Shown here in pieces: positions 310-62,764 of a stretch of 64,000 nt of DNA. Location: NCBI GenBank assembly GCA_964016885.1, contig OZ024752.1:36022001-36086000 (forward strand), given 5' to 3'. Source of the DNA: Eledone cirrhosa. Lineage: Eukaryota. Both the position numbers and the translations under genes were made by a program. Numbering within the stretch: the stretch's first letter is position 1; each line of letters begins with the position of its first letter. The notes below the pieces were generated by a model, which worked only from the letters and a program-made list of their open reading frames with translations, did no database searches and was not told where the DNA came from.

Positions 310-487
310 GTTTTAATATAGATGAGATTCTACAGGACTAGAACTGTTTCATTCTTTAGAAATCATCAGGAATCTGGGTATCAAAAAATAAATATGTAGA
401 ATCTCATCTATATTAAAACTTTTATACTCTGCAATGTATTGAGTACCTTACTTACTGTGGTTACCTCCGATTCAACCCGGAATAACG
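310..487 (+). mobile_element. Penelope-like pseudo-LTR end, family A (inverted arm + direct arm + tail)
   Basis: Near-identical copies at 7682-7813, 21997-22190 and 42245-42401 (-); all flanked by (TA)n; inverted arm always ends at ...tattaaaac. Confidence 0.8.
325..375 (-). ncRNA. Hammerhead ribozyme, type I (family A)
   Basis: Minus strand: agauuc-CUGAUGA-uuucu aa agaau-GAAACAG uucuaguc CU-GUA-gaaucu; stems I, II and III all pair. Confidence 0.85.
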
Positions 488-773
488 TATATATATATAT
501 ATATATATATATATATATATATACGTGGAGAAATATATAAAGGAGAACAAACCGTTAAAACATGTTTATTTAAAATAGCACCTACATACGTTTCGCTTCT
601 CAAGGGCATAAAAAACTAAAAAGCGTTCCTTAGGTGACCCGGAATATATGGGGTGGGATATGTATAGCTACTGTTGCTCAGAGAGTGGGATTGGCTCAGT
701 GCTCAGTCTTTCCTCACTTTTAAAAAATCCACGCACAGGCATCGCACGATAGCATTCATTGATAGTTATTAAT

Positions 774-940
774 AATTTTTCTACTTTTTGGCACAAGGCC
801 AGCAATTACCTAGTACATTACTGGTACTTTATTTTATCGACCCCGTAAGGATGAAAGGCAAAGTTAACCTCGGCGGGATTTGAACTCAGAATGGAAAGGG
901 TCGTAACTCTATGCGTCAAAGCATGACGTCCGACCCTCTA
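774..940 (-). mobile_element. tRNA-derived SINE with Meta-like central domain
   Basis: B box GAGTTCAAATCC; central gcctttcatccttacggggtcgataaaataaagtaccag; 3' end gtagaaa(c)aatt; many copies in the window. Confidence 0.85.
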
Positions 941-1074
941 CCGATATATATCGATAACGAGGGGACAGCCATCATGTAAAACTATATTCATTGAGTAATC
1001 AATGAACCATATTAATCTTTGGTCATATATATATATATATATATATATATATATATATATATATATATATATAT

Positions 1075-1292
1075 TTGCTTTTATCCTTCTATGTTGTTTA
1101 CTTGTCTCACTCCCTTTACGCGACTCACTTGTCACAATAGCTTTTTTTAGTTATTGCTCGCACCAACCTGAGGTATATGATTTTTAATGCGATGAAATAC
1201 CAATGATAGTTGGCAAATCACTGACGAGGGACTAATTTTATAATATGTAACCCATGTGCAACCACGCAGTATTCCTCTTTCTTCTTATGTTT
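1075..1292 (+). mobile_element. (TA)n-embedded Penelope-like end with variant hammerhead-like motif (family M)
   Basis: ccaac-CUGAGGU...GAAAU accaaug AUA-guugg; homologous to 35455-35660 and to the foldback copy at 45301-45523. Confidence 0.6.
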
Positions 1293-59400: not shown

Positions 59401-59965
59401 CTCCAGGTAGAGCTGTGACATCTCTGAATTGAGGGACCACAGCTCTGATACTATGGGCATGTGGTTAGAATGTGTCAGGAAAGAATTGCTGGAGTCACTC
59501 CAGGTAGAGCTGTGACATCTCTGAATTGAGGGACCACAGCTCTGATACTATGGGCATGTGGTTAGAATGTGTCAGGAAAGAATTGCTGGAGTCACTCCAG
59601 GTAGAGCTGTGACATCTCTGAATTGAGGGACCACAGCTCTGATACTATGGGCATGTGGTTAGAATGTGTCAGGAAAGAATTGCTGGAGTCACTCCAGGTA
59701 GAGCTGTGACATCTCTGAATTGAGGGACCACAGCTCTGATACTATGGGCATGTGGTTAGAATGTGTCAGGAAAGAATTGCTGGACAGATTTTACAAGCAA
59801 AACCAACCGGCAGGAAACCCATGAGTAGAGCTCAAGCAAGATGGTTGGATAACATCCATGAGCTTGGCTGGTGTCACTTGAGGCTCTAGCCAGAAGTAAG
59901 GAGTGTTTGAGGACTCTTTTCCCCCACAACCTTCTCAACAACAATAAGAGCAACAGCAACAAGAA
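56450..59965 (+). mobile_element. Decayed near-full-length RTE-clade LINE (AP endonuclease + RT)
   Basis: MGDLN.HIG, IMNTF, IPIFKRG, NYRGI, DEQCDFR, FVDLEKAYD, GLCHGCILTSFLF, YYGHVVRM; many stops and frameshifts; insert at about 57097-57440; (CAA)-rich tail. Confidence 0.9.
59007..59782. repeat. About 97-bp tandem repeat expanded within the LINE 3' region
   Basis: gagtcactccaggtagagc...aggaaagaattgctg recurs at 59104, 59201, 59298 and onward; about 8 copies. Confidence 0.9.
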
Positions 59966-61763
59966 ACATACCTGGCAGTTTTATCCATAGAAAATGATAT
60001 AAGAAATATAAGCAAAATATTGCAATAAATAATAAATTTATTAAAAGCATTATTTATATAAAAATAGGTACAAAGCCAGGAGCTGATTTTTATTTATTTA
60101 TCAGCCTACTAATTTAAATTATTTAAATTTTAAATCAGCCAAACCATTTTTTTCATGCTTCTATGATACATAAATGAAACAGTTTTAATATTTTAAAATT
60201 TTTAATTAAAAAAAAAAAAAGTTTAATTATATTTCAAAGACAGAGATACTTTGAAATAAATACCTTAGCCACAAAGCGGGCATATATTTAAACTAAAATA
60301 AAAACTTTAGATTTTAGAACCATCCAAACTTTGACAATCAATAGATTTGCATGAAAATAAGTTTCCCATGTTGAACAAAAAAAAAAACTGCAGAATTACT
60401 GTGGTTATATTTTCAATAATAAGGAAAGCGAAAATTTTTATGCAAACCTTACTTATCAAAAGATATAGGGGAAAAAACATTATTGCTAATTGTGTCATGA
60501 TTCCAATAATTTGATTATATGTAAAATGAAAGTCACATACCAATTCATAGCTTTAAAAGATAAACATTTGTTATGTTTTGTTGTGTTTTTTAAATATTTA
60601 TGTTCATAGTTCTAATAAATTACACTGCTTATATATTTCAATTAACTTTGAAAAGAATTAAGTATTTGGTTAGTAAAATAACTAACAAATTGTTTTCATC
60701 ATGATGATAGGTTTAATTTAAATATGAACATTTAACATTTTAGATTTGGCAGTTTTGTATAAGAGAGCCAACAAAAGGCAGTTTCAGGCAAGTTGGTATC
60801 AAAAGTGAGTTAGGGAATCGATCGACAACATCCTAGACCTCGTTCGCTTACCGAGTGGTGTCTGGAGTGGAACTCATCAAATCAGACCAAAGAAACAATG
60901 TTTCCATTGCTGATACTATTTACCAGTTACAACTGCTGACAGAAAGAGCAATATGAAATAAATAAAGTGTCTTGCTCAAGAACATAATGCACTGCCCAGT
61001 CCGGTTATCAAACTAGCAACCTCACAATTGTGAATCCAATTCTCTAACCACTAAGCCATGTACCTTCAAAAGAGTTAAGAACAATTAAATATACTTTTAT
61101 TAATCTGAAACTTCATAATGATGACCAAAACTCAAATAAAAACACATAAAACATAAAAAAAACTTCCTATATTTTATCTTTTCTTATCAACTGAATATTA
61201 TTTATTAATGATGTTAAATAAATTCAAACTTAACTGCACAGCAAATATATCTTCAGAATTAATTATATTCACTCCAAGTAGATGGTTAAAGTTTAAACAA
61301 TATATTTAGAGAGAGAAGAAATATTGAAAAAAAAATATATATTTTCAGAATTAATTATATTCAGTCCAAGTAGATGGTTAAAGTTTAAACAATTTATTTA
61401 GAGAGAGAAGAAATATTTTAAAACAAAATTTATAGGATTTATTTTTTTCTTTTTATTCAGCTGGATTACGTTCCGTCAGATGAGGTAGGCATGTTCCGAT
61501 ATTACATACATCTGGTATGGGTAGCAATACTAAAGTTTCGAGAATATTTGCCATTATAATTCAGATCAAATAAAAGAGAATAAAACTAAGAGAAAAAAAG
61601 AGTTTAAAAAGCTGATTTAATGCCAACAAAAGACTGAGATTCTTTTAAAAACAAGAACACTTTTTTTTTTCTGAAATGAGATTTAAAATCAGTTAAAAAA
61701 AGATTGTGCAGCTCAATATACTTGCTAACAAACAGAGAAATGTTTGCTGGTGAACCTCAATTA

Positions 61764-62122
61764 TTAAGATACTAATGTAGTTGTTTCAACTACATTATTA
61801 CAACCAGATGAAGCATTTTCTACATTATTCGAATGATCTGTTTCACTAAAGTTTTCTTTTTCAGAAGTTTCAATGTGCTGCTGCTGCTGAGGAGAAGAAG
61901 AAGATGCCCCTTCACATGCATTGCTAGATTCAGAAGAAGTAACAACAGGTTTTTCACTAGATAAAGATACCTCCTCAGAAGGATGTGAAGAATCTTCAGC
62001 TTTAATAGTGTCTTTCTGATTGGTTGCTTGCTTCAGTTCTGTAGCAGGACTAGTTTCTGATGAACCCACATTTTTTGTCTTAGTAGTTTCATTCTTACTC
62101 TCCGCTTGGTTGGCCGATTCAC
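61764..62122 (-). CDS. Probable terminal coding exon of an unidentified host gene (Ser/Glu/Thr-rich disordered C-terminus)
   Basis: Non-repetitive open frame ESANQAESK...TTLVS*; acceptor ttttttgtaaactag at 62123; followed by repeat-poor AT-rich 3'UTR-like DNA with AATAAA (-) at 60037-60042. Confidence 0.7.
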
Positions 62123-62764
62123 CTAGTTTACAAAAAATTAAATCAACCAAGTATTAAAAGACTAAATTAAAACAAATAATTTTATAATAGATGTTACCAA
62201 ATATATATTTATTTCCCGTTAAGGGTGAAAGCAGCGTTGCTTAAACTTTAATCTGTTATTTTAATAAATATTTGCTCTACGGTTCTTATATATCTGATAT
62301 ATATTTATCCTTATTGAGCCCTCTTTGGATTTTAGTCTTCACATTTATTATTATTACTATATATATATATATATATATAAAGAATGGTGTGCTCTGCATG
62401 GAGATGCTATGAAATAGGGTGAAGACCCTTAACCCTTACAGACCTGGGCCCCTCTGTCTAACTTTACGCTCTCTTTGGGCTCCTGAGCAAACAATTAGTT
62501 ATATACACAGCTGAAGAGTAATGATTACAGACAAACTAATGAACAGAATGAACACAAGGTGCAATAAATGTGTCTACCCACCCTTCATCTAGATATATAT
62601 ATAACGCACTCTTATCAGTATCAGTTGTGCAAGGGCCACACTGAAATTGTTCACCCAAATCACTACTTTCACAAGTTTCCCTCTCCAAATCACTCTCGCT
62701 GTTAGTATAAAGGTAAATTTGATGAAATTCTTGCTCACACTTGTCCATAGAATAAATGTCATCA

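What the first reader, a model, noticed from the sequence alone, without database searches (positions are those of the whole stretch)
439..62322. Conserved GAG-centred motif in the 3' tails of otherwise unrelated families
Seen in element sense, about 40-80 nt before the terminal microsatellite: TTGAGTACC (439), TTGAGTACT (4765; 44997 -), TTGAGTTCT (7606), TTGAGTGCT (7908 -; 33523), TAGAGTGCT (44793; 34870 -), TTGAGCGCT (21870), TCGAGCCCT/TTGAGCCCT (16077, 62314), TCGAGTGCC (33860). Consensus is about THGAGYNCY. Inference: a cis signal for RT/endonuclease recognition or RNA 3' processing. I do not recognise it as described.
Basis: partly seen in the sequence, partly recalled or inferred. Interest (0 to 1): 0.78.

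Follow-up and report, generated by a model that had tools for sequence, protein, structure and literature searches.

The report
Twin hairpins marking Penelope-like element ends
The short motif is one half of a small, conserved RNA hairpin that Hydra-type Penelope-like jumping genes carry twice in a row, and inserted copies stop a few bases in front of one hairpin or the other, which offers a testable explanation for the 'tail' these elements leave at one end.

Summary
The motif is real: 12 of 12 cited sites are present, and the positional enrichment replicates in 190 kb of held-out DNA. It is not a linear signal. It is the 3' strand of a bulged hairpin, 5'-RCUC-[variable stem-loop]-UH-GAGY, with strong covariation. 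The families are Penelope-like elements (PLEs); 5 of 11 in the window were tied to Hydra-clade ORFs. Full-length elements carry two hairpins (HP1, HP2) between the hammerhead ribozyme and the ATG. Insertions end in two classes: short ends 4-9 nt before HP1 (12 of 12 families) and long, tailed ends a few nt before HP2 (families A, E, K, G, M). The tail therefore equals the HP1-HP2 spacing. The hairpin recurs in published coral and sea-cucumber Hydra consensi, in metagenome Hydra elements and in ORF-less tandem monomers. Best reading (0.6): each hairpin binds the element's RT and sets an internal start site just 5' of it. No biochemical or RNA data support this yet. I found no description in the papers searched.

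The parts
426..444 (+). HP1 bulged hairpin, family A (Hydra PLE); insertion 310-487 with inverted short arm 310-394
   Evidence: parent ORF
4747..4770 (+). HP1, family B (hammerhead 3' half upstream; parent ORF not found)
7531..7611 (+). HP1, family C, with a 71-nt inner part; 5' strand still 6 nt after the family's short end
7752..7770 (+). HP1, family A (diverged 5' strand); short arm reaches 59 nt further 5' than long arm
7911..7930 (-). HP1, family D (Hydra PLE)
   Evidence: parent
15960..16010 (+). Hammerhead-like motif of family E (variant core), approximate limits, read by eye
16037..16082 (+). HP1, family E (Hydra PLE, 713-aa open frames elsewhere in the genome)
17839..17863 (-). HP1, family F (Hydra PLE); inverted pair about 17782-18873
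20579..20603 (-). HP1, family F
21850..21875 (+). HP1, family G (ORF-less tandem monomer)
22061..22104 (+). Type I hammerhead of family A (CUGAUGA and GAAA cores, GUA cleavage triplet), read by eye
22127..22145 (+). HP1, family A
24323..24343 (+).
33510..33528 (+). HP1, family D; insertion about 32396-33591
33841..33865 (+). HP1, family H (parent ORF not found)
34873..34892 (-). HP1, family I (G-U at the outer pair; parent ORF not found)
42287..42305 (-). HP1, family A
43737..43760 (+). HP1, family B
43996..44090 (+). Possible U3:A8-type hammerhead-like core in the G monomer (approximate; stem III not canonical)
44241..44266 (+). HP1, family G; 5'-truncated monomer about 43816-44328
44658..44724 (+). 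Hammerhead of family F with palindromic stem III (approximate), read by eye
44774..44798 (+). HP1, family F
45000..45025 (-). HP1, family J (parent not found)
45176..45199 (-). HP1, family B
45620..45643 (-). HP1, family B
46647..46670 (+). HP1, family B
53290..53313 (-). HP1, family B, decayed
53670..53693 (+). HP1, family B, 5' strand mutated
55339..55362 (-). HP1, family B
62274..62319 (+). HP1, family E

Best explanation
The motif is the 3' strand of a conserved RNA hairpin (RCUC / inner stem-loop / 1-3-nt U-rich bulge / GAGY) of Hydra-clade Penelope-like elements and of ORF-less monomers that probably ride on them. SHOWN from sequence: the hairpin covaries; full-length elements have two copies in tandem between hammerhead and ATG; 3' ends of insertions fall a few nt 5' of HP1 (short end) or HP2 (long, tailed end), where the RNA has UA-like letters that could pair with a nicked (TA)n target; most inverted insertions seen have one end of each class; the short arm often holds sequence missing from the long arm. 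INFERRED: in a read-through transcript the element's RT-endonuclease (possibly a dimer) binds each hairpin; the endonuclease nicks (TA)n; the freed 3' end pairs with the RNA just 5' of the hairpin base, and reverse transcription starts there internally, leaving the bound hairpin uncopied.
For: Structure: 23 of 33 tail-positioned hits form the hairpin against 3 of 37 others. With the 5' strand located only from the short end, 47 of 48 variable cells pair (shuffle mean 30.6; 0 of 20000 reach 47), 2 G-U, 0 A-C. On 27 representatives, 4 of 7 pairs show two-sided changes (these were selected for pairing). Geometry: short end 4-9 nt before the stem in 12 of 12 families while the inner part is 9-71 nt. 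HP2 was predicted from metagenome leaders and then found after the long end in E (4 of 8 loci fetched kept the leader, all 4 show it), A (9 of 10) and K (9 of 20), and in monomers G and M. End counts by maximal match: A 19 of 24 at -5 to -7 of HP1 and 21 of 22 at -4 to -7 of HP2; E 27 of 31 at -1 to -7 and 29 of 30 at -2/-3. Contigs of run X1 leave the E leader into (AT)n at these two places (144 and 133 contigs; X1 may be the assembly's own sample). Arms: in 39 inverted pairs the short arm reaches further 5' in 12 (up to 310 nt), the long arm in 4, equal in 23, so at least those 12 short arms are not fold-back copies of the long arm. ORF-less monomers keep both hairpins (longest ATG frame 49 aa or less). 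Conservation: 3 of 6 published Hydra consensi, 7 of 28 metagenome loci. Analogy: in Poseidon_Ac RT starts internally at two sites bounding the tail and needs RNA to +172 although the dominant start is at +111-118 (PMC11167929).
Against: No binding, cleavage or RNA-end data for any Hydra element. Family G has a good HP1 but 0 of 19 copies end before it. Family A's HP2 is a 4-bp stem with a swapped pair and no inner stem, and I identified it after seeing the end; K's HP2 has one inner pair in the bulged register. Single-sequence folding does not give the bulged register for E, where HP1's 5' strand pairs with HP2's 3' strand, nor for A. HP2 is untested for B, C, D, F, H, I, J. 9 of the 39 arm pairs are family B, limited by a 116-nt reference. 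Families share ancestry, so the shuffles overstate independence. One metagenome 3' tail (L145) is degenerate and L127 only partial.
Confidence: 0.6

Rival explanations
1. The hairpins act as DNA. The GIY-YIG endonuclease recognises them in the cDNA or in an integrated copy and cuts at the TA-rich bases just upstream, resolving the integration intermediate at HP1 or HP2.
For: Craig et al. attribute the tail to EN-mediated resolution (PMC8557442). Frangieh et al. cite that D. virilis EN needed the tail for cleavage. The ends are TA-like, the EN's target.
Against: G-U pairs on the sense strand would be A-C in first-strand cDNA (2 G-U, 0 A-C; few cells). Short arms with extra 5' sequence imply a separate start on RNA. 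In Poseidon_Ac the tail limits are RT start sites.
Confidence: 0.17
2. The hairpins direct RNA cutting or termination a few nt upstream, by a host nuclease, the element protein or the RNA itself. This yields two RNA 3' ends that are then copied by ordinary 3'-end target-primed reverse transcription.
For: Explains the same end geometry equally well. The elements already rely on RNA processing by a hammerhead (Hammerhead_1 at E 0.00095, below gathering score, in L185).
Against: Poseidon_Ac starts internally, independent of the template's 3' end. The motif matched no Rfam family. No RNA ends could be examined.
Confidence: 0.14
3. The hairpins are leader elements for translation of the uncapped, ribozyme-cut RNA, or part of an internal promoter; the ends lie near them only because RT stalls or primes beside any structure.
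For: In full-length elements they sit between the hammerhead and the ATG, HP2 ending roughly 20-45 nt before it. E's HP2 closes a UUCG loop.
Against: ORF-less G and M monomers keep both hairpins with the same end spacing. The end tracks the stem base across 9-71 nt inner lengths. Other stronger hairpins nearby do not attract ends.
Confidence: 0.06
4. No function: a shared ancestral remnant or an AT-composition artefact.
For: Families are related, with 31-50% protein identity.
Against: Compensatory changes across families whose flanks cannot be aligned, and across animal phyla; held-out enrichment.
Confidence: 0.03

Closest known systems
Hydra clade of EN+ Penelope-like elements (Craig et al. 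2021, PMC8557442; sections 6, 7, 11, part of 13, term passages and supplement parts 1, 2, 52, 53 read)
   Same: C-terminal GIY-YIG EN, RW(R/K), DKT and CxCx5C motifs, hammerhead, (TA)n targets, inverted 5'-truncated arms with a one-sided tail.
   Different: The main text has 0 hits for hairpin, bulge or stem-loop, although 3 of its 6 Hydra consensi hold the motif. Tails here are about 67-106 nt, not 30-40; 3' UTRs of 1.1 kb or more make these elements longer than the 'generally under 3 kb' given there.
Internal two-site RT initiation of Poseidon_Ac (Frangieh et al. 2024, PMC11167929; parts 1-2 of 4 read, figure text of two supplements)
   Same: The tail lies between two RT start sites; RNA 3' of the dominant start is required; a protein dimer is predicted.
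   Different: Different clade and sequence. [quoted passage not shown]
Non-LTR retrozymes as non-autonomous PLE derivatives (bioRxiv 10.64898/2026.07.22.740005; abstract, section 14 and term passages read)
   Same: G (about 600 nt) and M (560 nt) are ORF-less tandem monomers with hammerhead-like cores.
   Different: That paper has 0 hits for hairpin, tail or stem and names no cis signal for mobilisation; HP1/HP2 is a candidate.
3'-terminal stem-loops of stringent LINEs/SINEs (eel UnaL2) and the R2 3' UTR; telomerase RNA anchoring elements; L1 twin priming (all recalled, no call)
   Same: A small RNA structure recruits the RT and sets the register of copying; two priming events give an inverted arm.
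   Different: LINE and R2 signals lie 5' of the start and are copied; here the signal lies 3' of the start, is duplicated, and both arms overlap in sequence. No sequence or structure similarity was tested.

Membership tests
Hydra-clade PLE (families A, D, E, F, K) | Single ORF with RT and C-terminal GIY-YIG-type EN, homologous to Hydra-type proteins | tested here: met
   713-aa (E) and 758-aa (A) open frames; translated E shows YRDDG and a C-terminal EN; D, F, K tails adjoin homologous ORFs. Pfam gave no hit on the 329-aa C-terminal piece.
Hydra-clade PLE | N-terminal RWK motif, DKT for DKG, CxCx5C linker, no CCHH in EN | tested here: met
   RWR/RW in E, A, K; DKT and CxCx5C in E, one Cys only inside the GIY-YIG core; features.
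Hydra-clade PLE | Hammerhead ribozyme in the pLTR | tested here: met
   Cores and stems read by eye in A, D, F, K and L185-type loci, variant core in E; one Rfam Hammerhead_1 match below gathering score. Cleavage not tested.
Hydra-clade PLE | Insertion into (TA)n; inverted arm with one-sided tail | tested here: met
Hydra-clade PLE | Length generally under 3 kb | tested here: not met
   E: ORF about 2.1 kb plus about 1.1 kb 3' region; A: hammerhead 1.4 kb or more after the ORF. A descriptive, not defining, trait.
Hydra-clade PLE | Placement by RT phylogeny | not tested
   No tree built; assignment rests on motifs and homology.
Hydra-clade PLE (families B, C, H, I, J) | Tail joined to a Hydra ORF | tested here: inconclusive
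   No parent ORF reached; B, C, H, I show hammerhead parts and inverted arms.
Neptune/Poseidon-type PLEs of this genome | Motif in the element's own 3' end | tested here: not met
   None seen among 50 loci chosen by GIY-YIG; 10 model hits in 30 loci: 6 read as separate insertions, 2 as families B and E, 2 weak ones not examined. Internal microsatellites hid some true ends.
Naiad PLEs | Motif in 3' ends of published consensi | tested here: inconclusive
   Six exact 9-mers gave 6 hits in the supplement: 3 in Hydra ends, 3 inside other elements. Line breaks and variants are missed.
Known Rfam RNA family | Match at or near gathering score | tested here: not met
   Only sub-threshold, mostly microsatellite-driven miRNA matches among the 150 of 269 rows shown and.
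Non-LTR retrozyme (G, M) | ORF-less tandem monomer with an active hammerhead | tested here: inconclusive
   Tandem and ORF-less; U3:A8-type cores present, stems weak in G; activity untested.

The most novel reading that the evidence does not exclude
The PLE tail and head-to-head insertions are generally produced by a duplicated RT-anchoring RNA hairpin: a dimeric, telomerase-related RT binds two tandem hairpins 3' of its template, each setting a start site a few bases upstream. Moving the hairpin onto any RNA would program where copying starts, and non-autonomous retrozyme-like monomers are mobilised through it. The figure text of Poseidon_Ac RNA shows two similar short hairpins about 41 nt apart (read by eye), hinting that the rule extends beyond Hydra with another sequence.
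Probability: 0.35. Interest if true: 0.85.

Novelty: new variant of a known kind. Interest (0 to 1): 0.72.

Why it matters
How PLEs make their one-sided tail and inverted arms is an open question in the papers read, and their RT is the sister of telomerase RT. A 20-45-nt duplicated hairpin, conserved in several animal phyla and sitting at a fixed distance from both ends, turns that question into a few point mutations in an existing in vitro assay. It also offers a cis signal for trans-mobilisation of ORF-less monomers and a marker for annotating very abundant, short, unclassified repeats in genomes like this one (tens of thousands of first-look protein candidates).

Tried and rejected
Naiad or Neptune as parents: 50 GIY-YIG-selected loci did not carry the motif in their own ends. 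The motif as part of the hammerhead: rejected, it lies 20-270 nt downstream of complete cores. Rfam families: nothing relevant. Invariant NCY and a fixed 2-nt bulge: rejected. 'G and M lack a ribozyme': my first reading, withdrawn after a longer-stem scan. Fold-back of the long-arm cDNA as the general source of the short arm: fails for 12 of 39 pairs. A guessed pattern for family B's 5' ribozyme half found 0 matches; B's parent and HP2 remain open. The end mapping was distorted by gapped matches to TA runs and was replaced; its loose G anchor gave 51 unrelated rows and 2 doubtful short ends, so G rests. The covariance model misses long-inner-loop families C and E. No RNA holder listed. Runs X5 and X6 covered the stretch too thinly to use. 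Paper searches that turned up no description of the motif; term look-ups. Subscription journals, Repbase/Dfam notes, figures, bioRxiv supplements and a GenBank supplement of PMC11167929 could not be seen. Scan look-ups were empty.
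Full report
Observation. All 12 cited 9-mers are at their coordinates. THGAGYNCY has 37 hits in the window, 25 with a microsatellite 30-110 nt downstream against a background of 10.7%. In 190 kb of held-out genome it has 70 hits, 33 in that range (background 9.4%) and 23 at 30-49 nt against 1.9 expected. Six of these in-range hits are a look-alike inside family B's ribozyme.

It is half of a hairpin. Upstream of each GAGY lies RCUC, enclosing an inner stem-loop and a U-rich bulge of 1-3 nt on the 3' side. Among held-out hits chosen by the 3' half only, 23 of 33 tail hits form it against 3 of 37 others. 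RNAalifold on 27 representatives returns this structure, with two-sided changes at 4 of 7 pairs; that set was chosen for pairing. In a non-circular test the 5' strand was located from the short insertion end alone: 47 of 48 variable cells pair, shuffle mean 30.6, none of 20000 shuffles reaching 47. Relatedness of families inflates such figures. The NCY after the stem is common but not invariant.

The carriers. Upstream lie type I hammerhead cores, inverted 5'-truncated arms and (TA)n flanks, the anatomy of Penelope-like elements (PMC8557442; PMC4209133 part 1). Neptune/Poseidon-type elements picked by GIY-YIG did not show the motif in their ends. A Hydra-type ORF did: family E is the 3' end of a young element with 713-aa open frames and RWR, DKT and CxCx5C motifs. 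Families A, D, F and K also adjoin Hydra ORFs, 31-50% identical to E where measured. G, and a second family M found in loci, are ORF-less tandem monomers of about 600 and 560 nt with variant hammerhead-like cores. Parents of B, C, H, I, J were not reached.

Conservation. Read by eye, 3 of 6 published Hydra consensi carry the hairpin (coral Hydra-2_Amil and sea-cucumber Hydra-2_Ajap at the 3' end; Hydra-1_Ajap twice at the 5' end), one has a degenerate form and two do not show it. Of 28 metagenome loci found by protein, 7 carry it (L127 partly, L128, L129, L132, L140, L145, L150); many others lack the relevant end, and L145's 3' tail is degenerate.

Two hairpins, two ends. Insertion ends are sharply bimodal. 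Short ends lie 4-9 nt before the stem in 12 of 12 families although the inner part runs from 9 to 71 nt, so the end tracks the base of the fold, not the GAG. Metagenome full-length elements showed two hairpins between hammerhead and ATG, which predicted a second copy just past the long end. It was found in E (HP2 closes a UUCG loop), in K and, in reduced form, in A, and in G and M. HP1-HP2 spacing is 71, 89, 67 and 106 nt for A, E, K and G. By maximal match, 19 of 24 and 21 of 22 A ends, and 27 of 31 and 29 of 30 E ends, fall within 7 nt before HP1 and HP2. Run X1, possibly the assembly's own sample, shows 144 and 133 contigs leaving the E leader into (AT)n at those places. In 12 of 39 inverted pairs the short arm reaches more than 15 nt further 5' than the long arm, 4 the reverse, so those short arms began independently on a template.

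Mechanism (inferred). The hairpin is most simply an RNA handle for the element's RT-endonuclease. Bound 3' of the template, it places UA-like bases at the active site for pairing with a nicked (TA)n end. A start at HP2 copies HP1 and the spacer, giving the tail; a start at HP1 gives the short end; both together give the head-to-head insertion. This matches the one biochemical study: Poseidon_Ac RT starts internally at two sites bounding the tail, needs RNA beyond the dominant start and is predicted to dimerise (PMC11167929). Against it: no data on Hydra proteins; G shows no short ends in 19 copies; A's and K's HP2 are imperfect; single-sequence folds of E and A do not give the bulged register; HP2 is untested in seven window families. 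Endonuclease recognition of DNA and hairpin-directed RNA cutting remain live rivals.

Novelty. Hydra elements, the tail and two-site initiation are published. A conserved, duplicated bulged hairpin fixing both termini was not found in seven paper searches or in term look-ups within six papers (of PMC13282606 and PMC3846280 only passages were seen), nor in Rfam. The library lacks most subscription journals and all figures. An unchecked scan note reports a covarying two-hairpin module at junctions of a non-autonomous PLE array in another genome; it is a lead, not support. Verdict: real, structural, a new variant of a known kind of RT cis signal; interest 0.72.

Noticed in passing
L013:1-560, L062, L265-L274; window 43816-44328: Two ORF-less tandem monomer families (M 560 nt, G about 600 nt) with U3:A8-type hammerhead-like cores and both hairpins; retrozyme-like. 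G shows no short ends.
   Followed up: partly
window 5060-5398; L011-L038: A Neptune-type PLE family with an apparent U3:A8 hammerhead core and, in most loci read, the same 3' end at (AT)n; it lacks the motif.
   Followed up: partly
window 4626-4818, 43627-43808, 53552-53741: Family B copies nearly always invert at the same place, inside what looks like a long stem II of the hammerhead; the 5' half of the ribozyme and the parent were not found.
   Followed up: partly
window 7400-7500: Family C hammerhead appears to have an unusually long stem II insert (over 100 nt), and its HP1 a 71-nt inner part.
   Followed up: no
PMC11167929 Fig. S1 text: Two similar short hairpins about 41 nt apart in the Poseidon_Ac template RNA; start sites could not be placed on them.
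   Followed up: no
window 10850-11010, 37700-38950, 39700-41500, 43370-43550, 54600-55150: Many copies of one SINE-like repeat, including tandem partial arrays at about 37700-38950.
   Followed up: no
window 5444-5920 (-): Mariner-like transposase fragment (recalled likeness, not tested).
   Followed up: no
window 22530-23607, 2730-3810, 56700-59900: Fragments of non-LTR retrotransposons; the last has an RT-like match and an 84-nt tandem expansion near 59020-59780.
   Followed up: no
window 61764-62153 (-): 129-aa open frame rich in S/E/T that looks like a host exon; a family E stub sits 50 nt from it.
   Followed up: no
window 26497-27793, 28020-28822, 15271-15599: Minisatellites of 108, 44 and 47 nt units.
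   Followed up: no
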